A stretch of 64,000 nt of DNA from an uncultured Actinomycetes bacterium (GTDB lineage: Bacteria > Actinomycetota > Thermoleophilia > UBA2241): the NCBI GenBank assembly GCA_963725665.1, contig CAVRZA010000004.1, positions 320,001 through 384,000 on the forward strand. The letters run 5' to 3'. Below, one piece after another: positions 18,189 through 22,926 of the stretch. Below the pieces are notes generated by a model that saw nothing but the letters and a program-made list of their open reading frames with translations, made no database searches and was not told the DNA's origin. A program made the position numbers and the translations under genes. Position 1 is the first letter of the stretch; the number at the start of each line of letters is the position of its first letter.

Positions 18189-18397
18189 AGCGGTCTCGCG
18201 TTGGCAGTTCAGCGGACTCCGGCCTCCGCCCGTAAGCGCCGCAGCCCAGCTCTCACAGACTGCCCATGACTCCCGCCCAGCCTGGTGCTGATATGGAAGG
18301 ACCTGCTGTCAAGAAGGCAGGCGCAATCGACCTTGCCGGGGGCAGAGGATGGGTGGAGTATGGCGACGGCGGGGGGAGCGCGCCGGGCTCTGTCGTC

Positions 18398-18530
18398 GAC
18401 GCGCGGTCCAAGCTGATATGCGCGGGTTTGGTCATCCGCATGACCGTCTCTGCGTCGGGAGCTGCCGCTTCTCTAAGGTCGAGCGTGGCCCGTGCGCGGG
18501 TTGCTCAATAGCACCAACGCGGATGCTCCT
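18398..18530 (-). ncRNA. Predicted IS110 bridge RNA (target- and donor-binding loops)
   Basis: Two stem-enclosed internal loops; guides TGGTGCTA and GACCTTAG match the empty target, CATATCAG matches the donor junction; RNA ends approximate. Confidence 0.75.
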
Positions 18531-18576
18531 CGCGCGCCCGGCGCGCTCGCCTCGCCGCCTTCCTGCCGACGGTGCT

Positions 18577-19653
18577 CTAGCTCTCCATCACCGCCAGGCT
18601 CCAGCACCAGCCGGCGAGCTCGCGGGCGACCGCCACGGCGGCGACCTTGGAACACTTGCCACGCTCATCGAAGCGCCGCCGGCGACGCTGCAGGCGACGC
18701 TCCGCAAGTCGCGCCCGCTCGCGCACCGTGCCCGCGGCGGCGGCGCGCGCGCGCTGCACGCGCACGCTTCTGCCCGGTGGCCGGCGCTGCTGCCAGGCGG
18801 CCTCGATGAGCAGGCGCCGCGCGTGGCCGTTGCCGGTCTTGGTGATCGCCCCCTGACGCCGCCTCGTCCCGGAGGACTGCTCGCAGGGCACAAGGCCGAG
18901 GAAGGGGCCCAGGCTGCGGCCAGAAAAGCGCTGCCAGTCGCCGATCTCGACGGTGAGCGCGAACGCGGTCAGCGTCGAGATGCCACGCAGACAGGTCAGG
19001 CGCCCGACGACCGGCGCCCAGGGCTCCTTGAGCGCCTCCGCGGCGATCGCCGCGTCGAGGGCGTCACGGCGATCGCGCGCGGCGCACATCGCCGCCAGCC
19101 CCTCCTCATAGGCGACCTGCAATGACGGCTCGCAGAAACGCTGGCGGGCGAGCCACAGCTCGTGTGTCTGTGTCCAGCTGTGCTCCTCCCAGACGATGCC
19201 CCGACGCAAAAGCAGCTTGGCGAGGCGGTGACGGTGGCGCATCAGGTCGCAGCGCGCGTCCTCGCGGGCGCGCACCAGGTCGCGGGCGGCCTCCTCGGCG
19301 AGATCGGGCACCCGTACCGCGACCAGCTCCTCGAGGCGCAGCAGGCGGGCCAGCCGCAGCGCGTCGCGGCGATCGGTCTTGACGCGCTCGCCGGGTGCGC
19401 GCGGGATGCGCGAGAGGGCCGCCACGAGGCAGCGTATCCCGGCCTCGCTCAGAGCGCGGGCCAGGACGTAGCCGGTTGGTCCGGCCTCGCAGGCGACCGC
19501 CTGCGGGCCGGGCTGCGCGCGCACCCAGCCGACAAGCTCCTTGGCGGGCACCGGTGCGGCGAGGCTGCGCACCTCGCCGCTAAGCCCGTCGAGCACTCCC
19601 GCCTGGACCGAGCGGGCGTGCACGTCCAGGCCGATGAACGAACGCTCATGCAC
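18577..19653 (-). CDS. IS110 family transposase (bridge recombinase)
   Basis: IGLDVH, EAGPTG, KTDRRDA (DEDD) and GLVPCEQSSG, ITKTGN. Confidence 0.95.
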   Translation of the reverse strand: MHERSFIGLDVHARSVQAGVLDGLSGEVRSLAAPVPAKELVGWVRAQPGPQAVACEAGPTGYVLARALSEAGIRCLVAALSRIPRAPGERVKTDRRDALRLARLLRLEELVAVRVPDLAEEAARDLVRAREDARCDLMRHRHRLAKLLLRRGIVWEEHSWTQTHELWLARQRFCEPSLQVAYEEGLAAMCAARDRRDALDAAIAAEALKEPWAPVVGRLTCLRGISTLTAFALTVEIGDWQRFSGRSLGPFLGLVPCEQSSGTRRRQGAITKTGNGHARRLLIEAAWQQRRPPGRSVRVQRARAAAAGTVRERARLAERRLQRRRRRFDERGKCSKVAAVAVARELAGWCWSLAVMES

Positions 19654-19782
19654 ACCGTCGCCTCCTTACGGCCGCGGTCTGCCGTCGCGCCAGCCGCAAC
19701 GGCGACCCGCGCCAGACTATGCACCGGGGGCGACGGGCCGTTCCATATGGTCTAGGGTCCTCTGCAGAAGCAGGCAGTCTGT

Positions 19783-19821
19783 GCCGAACATCATCTACAG
19801 ACTGTTTAATCCTTGTTAGGC
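19783..19821 (+). other. Possible attI-like site / core site opening the cassette array
   Basis: GTTAGGC (GTTRRRY) at 19815-19821 after an AT-rich stretch, 9 nt before the first cassette ORF; too short for attC. Confidence 0.35.
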
Positions 19822-19830
19822 GGGGTAACC

Positions 19831-20298
19831 GTGGGGATCTCACTCCGGCCCGTCGCGGCAGGCGACCAACCGAGCATCGACCGCTGGGCGGCGGTGGCGG
19901 CCGACCACATGTCGCGCACACGTCCCTACGCCGAGGGCGCGGACCGTCACGACCCGGACCGCGGTCTCTTCTGGTATGTGATCGCCGACGGCGGCCGCGA
20001 CCTTGGCACCGTGTGGATTGAGCTGCCTCCGGGCTCCGACGAAGCGGTCCTGGGTGTGTTCCTCGGCGATGCGACGTTCTTCGGTCGCGGCATCGGCGCG
20101 GCGGCCATCGAGCTCGCCGTCGCCGAGTTCCGCGGCGCCCATCCGCAGTTGCCGGTCTCGCTGCGGGTGCGCCGCACGAACCAGCGTGCCATCGCCTGCT
20201 ACCGCCGTGTCGGCTTCGCGGTCACCGGCAGCGGCACCAAGTCGCTGCCCTCTGGCGAGGCCGTCCCCTACTACCGCATGGTCCTCGCGCCGTGCTGA
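19831..20298 (+). CDS. GNAT acetyltransferase, integron-type cassette
   Basis: GRGIG, NQRAIACYRRVGF; bounded by GTTAGGCGG and CCGCCTAGC. Confidence 0.8.
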   Translation: MGISLRPVAAGDQPSIDRWAAVAADHMSRTRPYAEGADRHDPDRGLFWYVIADGGRDLGTVWIELPPGSDEAVLGVFLGDATFFGRGIGAAAIELAVAEFRGAHPQLPVSLRVRRTNQRAIACYRRVGFAVTGSGTKSLPSGEAVPYYRMVLAPC

Positions 20299-20325
20299 GC
20301 TACCCCTCGCGGTGTGCTCCGACCC

Positions 20326-20342
20326 GCCTAGCAAGCGCATCA
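20326..20342 (+). other. Left arm of an attC-like site interrupted by IS110
   Basis: GCCTAGC-AAGCGCATCA resembles the left arms of the other attC sites and complements the upstream core GTTAGGC. Confidence 0.6.
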
Positions 20343-21045
20343 TTGGTGTCAGTCTCTCCCCGTGGGATCCCCTGGCACTCGTCAGGTAGCCTCGGACCCG
20401 ACGGCGGAGTGACCCAAAGCGTTTCTGTCGCCCCCGAGGGGCGGACCGTCAGCTGTATTGTCCCCCGCCGCCGGGATCCGAGGGGTCGCCGACGTGACCT
20501 GATAGGAGCCTGGCCGGAAGGCCCCAGCCAAGGCGTGTCCGCCGGCGGTCCCACTGAGATCGGCTGCAACCGACCAAGGGGGACTGAAGTGATCGTAATC
20601 GGGATCGACCCGCATATGAAGACCCATACCGCCGTGGCCGTCGACGCTGCGAGCGGGCGGACGCTCGCCGAGAAGACGGTGAGCAGCGACCCGCGCGGGC
20701 ACGAGGAGCTGCTTCTATGGGCACGCGCTCTCGGTCCCGAGCGCTGCTTTGCCATCGAGGACTGCCGCCACGTCTCCAGCCGGCTTGAGCGCCACCTGCT
20801 GCCCCGCGGCGAGCGCCTAGTGCGCGTGCCGCCGAAGCTGATGGCGGGCGCGCGCTCCTCGGCGCGCACTTACGGCAAGTCCGACCCCATCGATGCGGCC
20901 TGTGTGGCGCGTGCCGCGCTGCGCGAGCCCGACCTTCCGAAGGCCAGCCTCGCCGGGCCCGAGCAGGACGTGCGCCTGCTCGTCGACCACCGCGACGACC
21001 TCGTCGGTGAGCGCCAGCGCATCCAGAAACGCCTGCGCTGGAACC
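20343..21045 (+). mobile_element. Truncated IS110 element: structured 5' noncoding region plus N-terminal half of transposase (GTG 20589)
   Basis: IGIDPH..HTAVAVD, AIED, KSDPIDA; similarity ends near RLRWNL. Confidence 0.8.
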
Positions 21046-21425
21046 TGCAGAATGGCGCTATGTGTTTGCGTGGCATTATCCGCACGGATGAAGTTGGTGA
21101 CTATCGCTTCCGTAGTATCAAGCCAGCAAGCTACCCGATCACCGATGATGGGCCTGTCGGGGGATTGCTGCGAAAACTAGGCCGACATCCTTACCGTCCG
21201 GCCCATATCCACTTTATCGTCTCAGCCGAAGGTTATCGGCCAATCGTCACTCAGATCTTCGCGGAAGGCGATGAGTATTTGGAGTCGGATACCGTGTTCG
21301 GGGTCAAAGACTCGCTCGTGGCAGAGTTTGTTCGGGTGGATTCGGCTGAAGAGGCATCCCATTATGGGTTCCAGCCGCCGTTCTACAAAGTGGAATTCAA
21401 CTTCATCTTGGATAGAGCCAGCTGA
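21046..21425 (+). pseudogene. C-terminal fragment of intradiol ring-cleavage dioxygenase, in frame with the IS110 remnant
   Basis: LRGIIRTDEVGDYRFRSIKPASYPI, RPAHIHF, TQIF, SDTVFGVK; visibly lower GC. Confidence 0.8.
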
Positions 21426-21442
21426 GGTCTTGGGTGCAGGCC

Positions 21443-21512
21443 GCCGAACCAGCGCACGCAGTTGACCGCGCTCCGCTTCGCTCCGTGCGGCAACTGATGC
21501 GCGCCGTTCGGC
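21443..21512 (+). repeat. attC-like recombination site (70 bp)
   Basis: GCCGAAC...GTTCGGC with imperfect internal palindrome GCGCA..CAGTTG..CAACTG.TGCGC and unpaired bases. Confidence 0.85.
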
Positions 21513-21545
21513 AGCCACCTGACCGAGGGCCGCGGTGAAAGCTGG

Positions 21546-22268
21546 ATGACTGGCTACTACACGAACAAGCTGTCCGGCAGCCGGCTGGAGCGCTGCTACG
21601 AGGTGGCGCCTACGCGCGTGAGGCAGTATCTCGAGGCGGAGATCCGCCACGTTCTTGAACGACTTCGGTCCACGGACTCCGTCCTCGAGCTGGGGTGCGG
21701 GTATGGACGAATCGCTCGGAGGCTCGCGACAGTTGCCCACCATGTCGTCGGGATCGACACGGCATCCGAGAGCCTCGAGCTCGCTCGGCGAATGCTAGAG
21801 CCCGGGGCATGGTGCGAGTTCATGCAGATGGACGCGCTCGATCTACGCTTTCCTGACTGCGCGTTTGATGCAGTCGTGTGTCTTCAGAACGGGATATGCG
21901 CTTTCGGAGTCGACCAGGAGGCTCTTCTTCGGGAGGCCCTCCGCGTGACACGTGAAGGCGGGATGGTGCTGTTTTCCACGTACACCGATGGGATCTGGCC
22001 CGAGCGCCTGGCGTGGTTTGAGGCTCAGGCGGCCGAGGGGCTGGTCGGGGCCATCGACTACACGGCGTCCCACAACGGCGTCATCGTCTGCGACGACGGC
22101 TTTCGTGCGGGACGAATGACCGCCGGAGACTTCCGCTCCCTCTGTTCTGAGATCGGTGTGGCACCGATGATTGCTGAGGTGGACGGATCGATTCTCTTCT
22201 GCGAGATCATCAAGCCGGGTGCTGCCCAACAGGGCGATGCATCTGACCGCGCAACGCGCTGCAGGTGA
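21546..22268 (+). CDS. Class I SAM-dependent methyltransferase cassette
   Basis: VLELGCGYGR, VVGID, FDAVVC; flanked by attC sites. Confidence 0.88.
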   Translation: MTGYYTNKLSGSRLERCYEVAPTRVRQYLEAEIRHVLERLRSTDSVLELGCGYGRIARRLATVAHHVVGIDTASESLELARRMLEPGAWCEFMQMDALDLRFPDCAFDAVVCLQNGICAFGVDQEALLREALRVTREGGMVLFSTYTDGIWPERLAWFEAQAAEGLVGAIDYTASHNGVIVCDDGFRAGRMTAGDFRSLCSEIGVAPMIAEVDGSILFCEIIKPGAAQQGDASDRATRCR

Positions 22269-22285
22269 TCGCCAGAGCGTTCGCC
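22224..22285 (+). repeat. attC-like site (62 bp) overlapping the methyltransferase 3' end
   Basis: GCCCAAC...GTTCGCC, inner palindrome GGCGAT.CATCTG..CAGGTG.ATCGCC. Confidence 0.8.
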
Positions 22286-22301
22286 CTGACTCGCCCCACG
22301 A

Positions 22302-22338
22302 TTGACTTAGGCCCACTTTGAGGTACGCTATAGCGTAC
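22302..22338 (+). promoter_or_regulatory. TA promoter with overlapping operator palindrome
   Basis: TTGACT-N16-TACGCT; perfect palindrome GTACGCTATAGCGTAC at 22323-22338. Confidence 0.7.
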
Positions 22339-22357
22339 GGTTTGCAGGAGGACCCTC

Positions 22358-22600
22358 ATGACCAGTCTCACGGCGACAGAAGCGCGCAAGATCCTCTACC
22401 GGCTTCTCGACGAGGTGTCTGAGTCTCACGAGCCAGTCCAGATCACCGGCAAGCGCGGCAACGCCGTACTCGTGGGCGAGGATGATTGGCGAGCCGTCCA
22501 AGAAACGCTGCACCTGCTCTCAATCCCCGGCATGCGCGAGTCCATCCGGGAGGGCATGGCCACCCCGATCGATGAGCTCGACGAGAAGCCTGGTTGGTGA
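22358..22600 (+). CDS. yefM: Phd/YefM antitoxin
   Basis: TATEARKILYRLLDEV..HEPVQITGKRGNAVLV..ETLHLL. Confidence 0.92.
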   Translation: MTSLTATEARKILYRLLDEVSESHEPVQITGKRGNAVLVGEDDWRAVQETLHLLSIPGMRESIREGMATPIDELDEKPGW

Positions 22601-22860
22601 GCTGGCGTCTCTTCTACACGAAGCAGGCGCAGCGGGATGCAAGGAAGCTCGCCGCCGCTGGCCTGAGGCCGAAGGTGCAGGTGCTCCTCGATCTCCTCGC
22701 CGAGAACCCCTATCAGGCACCGCCGCCCTTCGAGAAGCTGGTCGGCGACCTGTCCGGTGCGTACTCGCGGCGAATCACCATCCAGCACCGGCTCGTCTAC
22801 CAGGTCCTGGACGACGAGCGAGCGGTGAAGGTTCTGAGGATGTGGACGCATTACGAGTAG
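22597..22860 (+). CDS. yoeB: Txe/YoeB toxin
   Basis: PPFEKLVGDLSGAYSRRITIQHRLVY..MWTHYE. Confidence 0.93.
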   Translation: MSWRLFYTKQAQRDARKLAAAGLRPKVQVLLDLLAENPYQAPPPFEKLVGDLSGAYSRRITIQHRLVYQVLDDERAVKVLRMWTHYE

Positions 22861-22926
22861 GGCGAGCAGGCGCATCGCGCAGATGCCGCGCTGCGCGCGG
22901 CACAGTTCACGCGCAACACGTTGGCC
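22861..22926 (+). repeat. attC-like site (66 bp)
   Basis: GGCGAGC...GTTGGCC, central TGCCGCGC.GCGCGGCA hairpin; begins right after the yoeB stop. Confidence 0.7.

What the first reader, a model, noticed from the sequence alone, without database searches (positions are those of the whole stretch)
20326..21045. IS110 inserted in an attC, with an upstream bridge-RNA-like loop apparently programmed for attC
Seen: the attC left arm GCCTAGC-AAGCGCATCA stops abruptly and a structured 5' noncoding region plus IS110 transposase follows. In that region an outer stem (about 20391-20407 with 20464-20482) and an inner hairpin enclose AAGCGTTTC (20417-20425) and CGTCAGCTG (20447-20455, reverse complement CAGCTGACG). 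Together these resemble the flank AAGCGCATC and the neighbouring attC arms CAGCGCACG-CAGTTGACC and AGGGCGATG-CATCTGACC. Known: attC-targeting elements are described in the IS1111 group, whose noncoding RNA lies downstream. Inference: an IS110-group bridge recombinase with upstream RNA that independently targets attC sites.
Basis: partly seen in the sequence, partly recalled or inferred. Interest (0 to 1): 0.82.

Follow-up and report, generated by a model that had tools for sequence, protein, structure and literature searches.

The report
attC-targeting IS110 element with bridge RNA
A broken copy of a jumping gene sits inside an integron recombination site, and its many intact relatives show that the small RNA it encodes upstream is programmed to find such sites, a habit so far described only for a sister group that carries its RNA downstream.

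Summary
At 20326-20341 an attC left arm (GCCTAGC + AAGCGCATC) is cut off by the left end (20343) of an IS110-family element. That end carries a 246-nt upstream non-coding region and a recombinase gene (GTG 20589). The gene stops being IS at 21049, so only the DEDD domain is left, fused in frame to a dioxygenase fragment. This copy is dead.

About 100 homologous elements were fetched. A second loop (20501-20533) matches the element's own right and left ends. This is the IS110/IS621 bridge-RNA layout.

In the close clade, insertion lies exactly between nt 9 and 10 after the R'' AAC of attC sites (ATC^CAG), in one orientation. All five relatives' genomes tested carry an integron integrase; in three it lies 2-6 kb from an insertion. 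The window's own genome has none, only a four-attC cluster.

My searches found no printed report of an attC-targeting IS110-group element; only IS1111-group ones are described. The crossover geometry and RNA expression remain untested.

The parts
19813..20298 (+). GNAT acetyltransferase ORF of the cassette whose attC is interrupted
   Evidence: Pfam Acetyltransf_1 35.7 bits. GTTAGGC at 19815-19821 precedes it.
20326..20341 (+). Left arm of the interrupted attC: R''-like GCCTAGC (one mismatch to RYYYAAC) plus the 9-nt left target AAGCGCATC
   Evidence: 65 of 106 element calls have AAC 9-10 nt before the left end.
20342..20342 (+). Junction base N (A here), the variable 0-1 nt between the left target and TTGG
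   Evidence: N is C in 32, G in 21, A in 3 and absent in 9 of 65.
20343..21049 (+). IS110-group element fragment: 707 of about 1344 bp, with the left end, bridge-RNA region and DEDD domain. The 3' half and right end are missing.
   Evidence: 93% identical to full-length L106 over 20326-21049, after which homology ends. Full elements are 1330-1357 bp.
20343..20351 (+). Right-donor TTGG (20343-20346) and sub-terminal repeat TGTCA (20347-20351), the inverse of TGACA in the right end of full copies
   Evidence: TTGG/TTAG/TTAA/TCAG/TCAA covary with CCAA/CTAA/TTAA/CTGA/TTGA in the RNA. In one search, columns 3/223 read AU in 33, GC in 16 and AC in 2.
20402..20470 (+). Target-binding loop: outer stem 20402-20413/20460-20470, left target guide 20417-20425, inner hairpin 20427-20446, right target guide 20447-20455
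   Evidence: Consensus fold of 51 sequences. Guide-flank covariation.
20501..20533 (+). Donor-binding loop: left donor guide GATAGGAGC 20501-20509, inner hairpin 20510-20527, right donor guide CCAA(GG) 20528-20533
   Evidence: the guide matches the right-end sequence CATAGGAGC. L082 carries AGAGGAGC in both places. Coordinates.
20576..20583 (+). Ribosome-binding-like AAGGGGGA before GTG 20589
   Evidence: Sequence; inference.
20589..21049 (+). Truncated recombinase CDS (153 codons): the DEDD/RuvC-like domain only. The Ser-bearing Tnp domain is lost.
   Evidence: PF01548 64.3 bits. NF033542 87.5 bits, below the cut-off of 140. Translation.
21050..21425 (+). C-terminal fragment of an intradiol dioxygenase, in frame with the IS fragment; lower G+C
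   Evidence: PF00775, profile positions 71-181 of 182, 104.4 bits. G+C is 0.60 in 21001-22000 against about 0.70 around it.
21443..21512 (+). Intact attC
   Evidence: Model R1, 29.5 bits, E 2.2e-5.
21546..22268 (+). Methyltransferase cassette ORF
   Evidence: Methyltransf_25 76.7 bits.
22224..22285 (+). Intact attC
   Evidence: Model R1, 33.5 bits, E 2.1e-6.
22358..22860 (+). PhD/YefM antitoxin plus YoeB/ParE-like toxin cassette
   Evidence: PF02604 66.4 bits; PF06769 39.1 bits.
22861..22926 (+). Intact attC, the last one found
   Evidence: Model R1, 29.4 bits, E 2.5e-5.

Best explanation
The region is a dead, 3'-truncated copy of an IS110-group insertion sequence. It entered the left arm of an attC site in an integrase-less cassette cluster of a high-G+C Coriobacteriia-like genome.

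Intact members of its family are about 1.34 kb long, with a 359-aa DEDD/Ser recombinase. Between the left end and the gene they encode a bridge RNA with two internal loops.

[quoted passage not shown] In the second loop, GAUAGGAGC pairs with the element's right end and CCAA with its first four bases.

The recombinase, held by this RNA, joins the circular element to the attC between nt 9 and 10 after AAC (ATC^CAG). Insertion goes in one orientation and leaves no visible target duplication.

What is shown: the anatomy, the covariation of guides with flanks, the insertion point, and the integron context. What is inferred by analogy with IS621 and ISEc21: the RNA itself, the circle, the promoter across the junction, and catalysis.

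Each insertion separates R'' plus 9 nt from the rest of the attC. This should stop integrase-mediated excision at that site (inference).
For: Anatomy. The DEDD domain is present and the C-terminal domain is lost. The full-length relative P0002 scores 182.5 bits on NF033542 'IS110 family RNA-guided transposase', cut-off 140. The left non-coding region is 246 nt and the right end is ..TTGACATAGGAGCAA, about 20 nt after the stop.

Guides. The comparison used 79 distinct sites, taken from 106 element calls. The block aligned to 20417-20425 matches its own left flank at 7.51 of 9 positions, against 5.23 for shuffled pairs (maximum 5.65 in 1000 shuffles). The block aligned to 20447-20455 matches the reverse complement of its own right flank at 6.43 of 9, against 5.15 (maximum 5.52). 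The signal also holds in the 26 sites without an attC-type flank: 6.85 against 4.32, and 5.96 against 4.14.

Donor loop. The first four bases of the left end covary with the RNA: TTGG, TTAG, TTAA, TCAG and TCAA go with CCAA, CTAA, TTAA, CTGA and TTGA. In one search, 16 of 51 sequences carry a double change at columns 3/223.

Fold. The target-loop stems are kept in 51 sequences, with compensatory changes; for example, columns 111/125 read GC in 34 and AU in 12.

attC identity of the target. 65 of 106 calls have AAC 9-10 nt upstream. Of 50 such elements with at least 100 nt of right flank, 48 have a downstream GTT box. Of these, 29 meet both R''/R' and arm complementarity at 5 of 7 or better, giving rebuilt sites of 63-104 bp. 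26 unoccupied attC sites in the same arrays read AAC + 9-mer + CAGC.GAC.

Integron context. An integron integrase over the cut-off (397-473 bits against 265) is present in 5 of 5 relatives' genomes tested. It lies about 2-6 kb from an insertion in three of them (with locus coordinates). The window has 3 intact attC sites directly downstream.

Known mechanism. (passages read) describe the loop layout, the strand rules, the IS110 guide order, and insertion without duplication for ISEc21.
Against: The window copy has lost its right flank, so only the left guide can be compared in place. That match is 7 of 9, plus one wobble.

Within the attC clade, the right-guide signal is small: 6.66 against 6.15 shuffled, maximum 6.42. 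The sequences are related and so not independent.

21 of 50 rebuilt sites fail the strict attC criteria. Some right flanks (L035, L115, L116, L137/L138) do not continue as an attC. L138 has a non-attC left flank with the same guides as L137.

The crossover is not resolved. The left-donor guide leaves the last AA of the right end unmatched. Under IS621 spacing, target and donor share no core dinucleotide (TC against AA). The junction base N varies between near-identical copies.

There is no evidence of transcription: nothing was found in Rfam, and no run held more than 21% of the sampled words. Four or five spurious left-end calls were left in the counts.
Confidence: 0.85

Rival explanations
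1. Target choice needs the folded or cruciform attC structure, read by the protein, as well as RNA pairing (a sequence-plus-structure logic). The guides alone would then not define the target.
For: All close-clade targets lie inside an imperfect palindrome. The two target guides are partly complementary to each other in the MFE fold. A 2026 preprint abstract reports a 'sequence-structure dual-match logic' for an IS110 element, ISPpu10; I saw only the search listing.
Against: Sister-clade elements with the same RNA layout sit at sites that are not attC-like, and there too the guides match the flanks. IS621 and ISEc21 work on linear duplex targets.
Confidence: 0.1
2. The 16-17 nt attC-like arm is the conserved terminus of the element itself and not host target sequence.
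For: BLAST similarity between relatives often starts at window 20321-20328, upstream of 20343.
Against: The 9-mer differs between copies with identical interiors and covaries with an arm in the right flank. The same AAC + 9-mer is continuous with CAGCAGAC in unoccupied sites. Sister-clade elements share the ends but not the arm. Short contigs break at 20343 (L158, L146, L036).
Confidence: 0.02
3. The element is a passenger captured as, or within, a gene cassette by the integron integrase, and does not itself target attC.
For: It lies in cassette arrays, co-oriented with the cassettes.
Against: It splits a single attC at a fixed phosphodiester bond, with the two halves on either side, instead of being bounded by whole attC sites. 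Its guides match those halves.
Confidence: 0.02
4. The IS-dioxygenase junction at 21049/21050 is an assembly chimera of a metagenome-derived genome and not a real deletion. The element may be whole in the organism.
For: The genome has 12 contigs and 5% contamination. G+C drops at the junction. No contig of four public runs bridges 21036-21079. Repeats such as this IS often break assemblies; many relatives' contigs end at the IS.
Against: The junction lies inside a 654-kb contig and keeps an open frame. The same 278-aa fusion protein is on record from 2 contigs (P0001), though these may be the same assembly. The contigs laid cannot show absence.
Confidence: 0.2

Closest known systems
IS621 / IS110-group bridge recombinases (Durrant et al. 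2024, Hiraizumi et al. 2024; passages read)
   Same: Both have a DEDD N-terminal domain. The tetrad spacing D7/E56/D98/D101 in the window protein equals IS621's 11/60/102/105 shifted by 4 (by inspection). The RNA is encoded in a long left end, with two internal loops. In each loop the 5' side (9 nt) is same-sense, pairing with the bottom strand, and the 3' side is complementary to the top strand. The right end carries a -35-like TTGACA. Nine nt lie between the sub-terminal repeat and the junction on the right end, and 5 nt on the left end.
   Different: The target is an attC arm. No core dinucleotide shared by target and donor is visible (TC against AA at positions 8-9). The left-donor guide stops 2 nt short of the end. 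The sub-terminal repeat is 5 bp (TGACA/TGTCA). The right target guide is 9 nt, against 4-7.
ISEc21 / ISMch6 (IS110 family, upstream non-coding region; Siddiquee et al. 2024; passages read)
   Same: The non-coding region lies upstream. The bottom-strand match is 5' of the top-strand match. Insertion occurs without duplication of target bases. The C-terminal 150 aa of P0002 are 43-46% identical to plasmid genes annotated as ISEc21 or ISMch6 family.
   Different: ISEc21 targets a conserved stretch inside IS3-family transposase genes, not attC. Similarity was seen only over residues 190-340.
IS1111-attC group: ISKpn4, ISPst6, ISPa25 (Tetu & Holmes 2008; Post & Hall 2009; known here only through, since the original papers could not be read)
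   Same: They insert site- and orientation-specifically into one end of attC sites of cassette arrays. Their recombinase is of the DEDD family and is guided by an element-encoded RNA with one match to each strand.
   Different: Their RNA lies downstream of the gene, in a long right end, with the top-strand match 5' of the bottom-strand match. They have long sub-terminal repeats (7-17 bp). Here the right end is about 20 nt and the order is reversed. Whether the insertion point within attC is the same could not be checked.
Group IIC-attC introns (search listing only)
   Same: Another mobile element class specialised on attC sites.
   Different: They are retroelements with a ribozyme and are unrelated in mechanism.

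Membership tests
IS110 family (DEDD RNA-guided transposases, NF033542) | N-terminal DEDD / RuvC-like domain (PF01548) | tested here: met
   Window aa 4-154, 64.3 bits against a cut-off of 29.
IS110 family (DEDD RNA-guided transposases, NF033542) | C-terminal Tnp domain (PF02371) with the catalytic serine | tested here: not met
   It is absent from the window copy, where homology ends at 21049. It is present in full-length relatives: precomputed PF02371, and P0002 at 182.5 bits against 140 on NF033542. The family assignment therefore holds for the lineage, and this copy is a fragment.
IS110 group (as opposed to the IS1111 group) | Long non-coding left end and short right end, with the RNA encoded upstream of the gene | tested here: met
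   246 nt from 20343 to 20588. In full copies the right end finishes about 20 nt after the stop.
IS110 group (as opposed to the IS1111 group) | Two internal loops; the bottom-strand (same-sense) guide 5' of the top-strand guide; target loop before donor loop | tested here: met
.
IS110 group (as opposed to the IS1111 group) | Core dinucleotide shared by target and donor and covered by all four guides | tested here: inconclusive
   Unoccupied and occupied sites differ by 0-1 nt, not 2. Under IS621 spacing, positions 8-9 are TC in the target and AA in the donor. ISEc21 likewise shows no duplication.
IS110 group (as opposed to the IS1111 group) | Short sub-terminal inverted repeat (2-3 bp in the IS110 group, 7-17 bp in IS1111) | tested here: inconclusive
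   TGACA / TGTCA is 5 bp, which is intermediate.
IS110 group (as opposed to the IS1111 group) | Circular intermediate whose RE-LE junction forms a promoter for the RNA | not testable with these tools
   TTGACA lies 9 nt from the right end. With a 17-nt spacer the -10 would be CACTCT, or CAGTCT in the window, which is weak. No circle junction was seen.
IS1111-attC group | Guide RNA and long non-coding region downstream of the gene, with long sub-terminal repeats | tested here: not met
   The right end is about 20 nt. It is therefore not a member, although it behaves like one towards attC.
IS1111-attC group | Orientation-specific insertion at a fixed point in attC | tested here: met
   All 65 attC-type left flanks carry R'' on the left of the gene's strand, with insertion after nt 9.
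Integron cassette array without integrase (CALIN; definition recalled, from no call) | Two or more attC sites in series, with no integron integrase nearby | tested here: met
   There are 3 intact attC sites plus 1 interrupted site within 20326-22926. The best TIGR02249 match in the whole genome scores 85.9 bits against a cut-off of 265. The genome is 97.5% complete.

The most novel reading that the evidence does not exclude
A whole clade of IS110-group bridge recombinases in Actinomycetota (Coriobacteriia and neighbours) has been naturally reprogrammed onto the attC sites of sedentary chromosomal integrons. This is convergent with the IS1111-attC group but uses the opposite RNA placement and guide order. 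The clade recombines without a core dinucleotide shared by donor and target. Its sister clade uses the same RNA scaffold to target -10 hexamer / leaderless start-codon junctions of actinobacterial genes.
Probability: 0.45. Interest if true: 0.72.

Novelty: new variant of a known kind. Interest (0 to 1): 0.62.

Why it matters
Bridge-RNA recombinases are being developed as programmable genome-writing tools, so natural examples of retargeting show which positions of the scaffold tolerate change.

This family offers about 60 natural guide-target pairs on one scaffold. They include 9+9-nt target guides, use of wobble pairs, and an apparent lack of a shared core.

For integron biology, the family shows a second, independent lineage of RNA-guided elements that uses attC sites as a safe landing place. 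It occurs in a phylum (Actinomycetota) where integrons are little described. Each insertion splits an attC and should freeze the neighbouring cassettes in place.

The window copy is itself only a relic. The value lies in the family it points to.

Tried and rejected
Rfam. The gathering-threshold scan of the whole window found only a tRNA, so no curated family covers this RNA.

Own genome. There is no second copy of the element and no protein relative above 28% identity. Ends and targets therefore had to come from other genomes.

Public runs. No run held more than 21% of the sampled words. Contigs of X1-X4 cover parts of the stretch, but none bridges 21036-21079. This says nothing either way about the junction or about expression.

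Donor-loop fold. The consensus fold did not give a clean donor loop. The donor loop therefore rests on the guide matches and on the hairpin read by eye.

Core dinucleotide. I tried several registers for a shared core (CC, TC, CA, single C) against the junctions. None fits all the data, so I left the question open.

Tree. The careful tree did not finish in 300 s, and the tree reported is the quick one with a midpoint root. No direction of evolution is claimed.

Literature. Three searches and a term search in one preprint found no IS110-group attC-targeting element. Tetu & Holmes 2008 is not held, and Post & Hall 2009 was not looked up. The insertion point of IS1111-attC elements within attC therefore could not be compared.

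Full report
WHAT IS THERE

The window is part of a 654-kb contig of a 3.7-Mb, 12-contig genome with about 69% G+C. The closest protein relatives carry names such as 'Coriobacteriia bacterium'.

Between 19813 and 22926 lies a short cassette cluster:
- a GNAT gene (19813-20298);
- an interrupted attC (20326-20341);
- the element studied here (20343-21049);
- a dioxygenase fragment (21050-21425), then attC 21443-21512;
- a methyltransferase gene, then attC 22224-22285;
- a PhD/YoeB-like pair, then attC 22861-22926.

The three intact attC sites are the only hits at E<=1 in 64 kb, on both strands, for a covariance model that I built from 21 of 26 unoccupied attC sites of other genomes. None of those sites came from the window. 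The genome has no integron integrase: the best TIGR02249 match scores 85.9 bits against a cut-off of 265.

THE ELEMENT IN THE WINDOW

After GCCTAGC AAGCGCATC A, the sequence TTGGTGTCAG begins at 20343. A 246-nt non-coding stretch follows, then GTG at 20589 behind AAGGGGGA.

The protein has the DEDD_Tnp_IS110 domain (aa 4-154) and no Transposase_20 domain. From aa 157 it is the last 111 profile positions of Dioxygenase_C.

DNA identity to full-length relatives (93% to L106) runs from 20326 to 21049 and stops there. So 707 of about 1344 bp remain, and the catalytic-serine domain, the right end and the rest of the attC are gone.

Whether this is a real deletion or an assembly join could not be settled. 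No contig of four public runs bridges the join.

RELATIVES AND ENDS

The N-terminal 152 aa find thousands of 359-aa proteins carrying PF01548 and PF02371.

With the 94%-identical P0002 I fetched 79 loci from species genomes and 79 from metagenomes. A further 15 came from the window's taxonomic neighbours, where 13 of 61 genomes have a match.

Pairing a left-end motif with a right-end motif 1250-1500 bp apart gave 112 element calls, of which 106 were distinct. About five are false second hits inside an element.

Full elements start with T[T/C][A/G][A/G]TGTCA. They end with TTGACATAGGAGCAA, about 20 nt after the stop codon.

THE TARGET IS AN attC ARM

In 65 of 106 calls, AAC lies 9-10 nt before the left end. 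Everything further upstream is unrelated between loci.

The right flanks of these elements start with CAGC.GAC or CACCTGAC. They run into an arm complementary to the left 9-mer, followed by GTTRRRY.

Of 50 such elements with at least 100 nt of right flank, 48 have a GTT box. Of those, 29 pass both complementarity tests at 5 of 7 or better, giving rebuilt sites of 63-104 bp. The other 21 are weaker or end in unrelated DNA.

In the same arrays, 26 unoccupied sites read AAC + 9-mer + CAGC.GAC without interruption. Insertion is therefore between nt 9 and 10 after AAC (ATC^CAG).

Occupied sites carry 0-1 extra base at the left junction: C in 32, G in 21, A in 3 and none in 9 of 65. No two-base duplication is present.

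All five relatives' genomes that I tested hold an integron integrase over the cut-off (397-473 bits). In three of them it lies about 2-6 kb from an insertion, and in a fourth about 32 and 60 kb away (with coordinates). These distances assume that the contig numbers correspond to the record numbers, which is an inference.

One genome has four copies within about 20 kb of its array (L046, L048, L049, L052).

THE RNA

A MAFFT alignment of the left ends shows four covarying relationships.

1. The block under window 20417-20425 is same-sense to the 9 nt left of the insertion.
   - In the attC clade: CCAGGTTTC with CCAGGTTTC in L154, CAGCGGCTC with CAGCGGCTC in L034.
   - At other targets: TTGGGTTGC in L014, TAGTGTGTC in L077, TAGACTCGG in L098.

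2. The block under 20447-20455 is the reverse complement of the first 9 nt on the right. A sub-clade whose flank starts with G instead of C has the matching change.

   The comparison covered 79 distinct sites.

   | Guide | Own pairs (matches of 9) | Shuffled pairs, mean | Maximum in 1000 shuffles |
   |---|---|---|---|
   | Left | 7.51 | 5.23 | 5.65 |
   | Right | 6.43 | 5.15 | 5.52 |

   Inside the attC clade alone the right-guide excess is small (6.66 against 6.15), because the targets are alike.

3. GATAGGAGC (20501-20509) repeats the right-end sequence CATAGGAGC. The single relative with AGAGGAGC in the right end (L082) has it in the RNA too.

4. CCAA (20528-20531) is the reverse complement of the first four bases of the element and changes with them in five variants. 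In the consensus fold this appears as 16 double changes at one column pair.

The consensus fold of 51 sequences keeps an outer stem (20402-20413 with 20460-20470) and an inner hairpin (20427-20446), which leave the two target segments as an internal loop. The second loop was not recovered cleanly by the program.

This layout is the one published for IS621. The first loop binds the target and the second the donor. In each loop the 5' side pairs with the bottom strand over 8-9 nt, and the 3' side pairs with the top strand. The guide order is the one reported for the IS110-type ISEc21 and is opposite to that of IS1111 members.

WHAT DOES NOT FIT

IS621 shares a CT core between target and donor, and all four guides cover it. 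No shared core is visible here.

Counting from the sub-terminal repeat (right end TGACA, left end TGTCA), there are 9 nt to the junction on the right end and 5 nt (N + TTGG) on the left. This matches IS621's 9 + 5 spacing. But positions 8-9 would then be TC in the target and AA in the donor, and the left-donor guide leaves that AA unmatched.

The bases after the right target guide (UU, or UA in the window) could pair with the donor's AA. The GG after CCAA could pair with the target's C plus N = C. This resembles the 'handshake' positions described, but it is my reading and not a test.

ISEc21 also inserts without duplication.

Several junctions are irregular:
- L131 and L132 carry AAC instead of N.
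- L120 has an odd left junction.
- L011 and L107 have a right-flank first base that their own guide does not predict.
- L138 has a non-attC left flank.

COMPARISON AND NOVELTY

The element is an IS110-family member by domain and by NCBIfam model. It is of the IS110 group by RNA placement and guide order.

It is not an IS1111-attC element, although it treats attC in the same way. The C-terminal third of P0002 is 43-46% identical to genes annotated as ISEc21 or ISMch6 family. Enterobacterial plasmid hits are about 32% identical over the whole length.

On a quick, midpoint-rooted tree of 82 distinct proteins (from 92), the elements at non-attC sites form one clade of 19 rows with support 99. The other 63 rows are attC-type, apart from three variants and seven with too little flank to judge.

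Three literature searches found attC targeting described only for IS1111-family elements and group IIC introns. The supplements and two key older papers could not be read.

I therefore rate it a new variant of a known kind. The mechanism is known. The target class is new for this group, with some departures in geometry.

VERDICT

The window copy is a non-functional relic. The family it belongs to is a well-supported, apparently undescribed attC-targeting lineage of bridge-RNA elements in actinobacterial integrons.

Noticed in passing
window 18290-19747 (- strand); flanks 19748-19822 and 18244-18289: A second, complete IS110-family element (358 aa, both domains). It has a short 5' region (94 nt) and a long 3' region (287 nt), which is the IS1111-like layout. 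It is inserted at GACCCTAG^CACCAG in a repeat of about 115 nt. Its 3' region holds TGGTGCT, the reverse complement of the right flank AGCACCA.
   Followed up: partly
window 19748-19822 + 18244-18289; G000 C11:457757-457871; C2 about 226900-227016: An unknown repeat of about 115 nt, present three times in the genome, with no Rfam family. It starts with GCCNAAC AAGGATT, which is R''-like, and in the window it abuts the first cassette with GTTAGGC (19815-19821). It could be an attI-like remnant or a small RNA gene; the C11 copy is followed by a terminator-like hairpin.
   Followed up: partly
loci L066, L076, L077, L083, L088-L091, L098, L099, L174 (junctions listed): The sister clade (50-66% identity) sits between a TANNNT-like hexamer and a GTG or ATG a few bases on, for example TAGCCT-CGCG|IS|ACC-ATG. 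Its left guides all start with TA. It looks like targeting of -10 box / leaderless start-codon junctions in Acidimicrobiia and other Actinomycetota.
   Followed up: partly
genomes G061-G064 (loci L194-L197 with L046, L056, L040, L027): Integron integrases scoring 459-473 bits in Coriobacteriia/Actinomycetota metagenome-derived genomes lie on the same strand as the cassettes and the IS, so the integrase gene reads towards the array and is not divergent from it. One array appears to extend at least 60 kb.
   Followed up: no
window 21111-21218, run X1 (tables 7-8): One 151-nt contig of another metagenome joins this part of the dioxygenase fragment (3 differences) directly to an attC-like left arm (..CAGAAC AAGCGCATG AACCTGACG). 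That is a different breakpoint, 61 nt from the window's, in the same cassette.
   Followed up: no
window 20589-21425: The IS fragment and the dioxygenase fragment form one open 278-aa frame. The identical protein is on record from 2 contigs (P0001). It is probably a meaningless fusion.
   Followed up: no
loci L036, L038: Two 1.35-kb contigs that consist only of this IS are binned in 'Gammaproteobacteria' metagenome-derived genomes. This is more likely mis-binning of a repeat than a true host.
   Followed up: no
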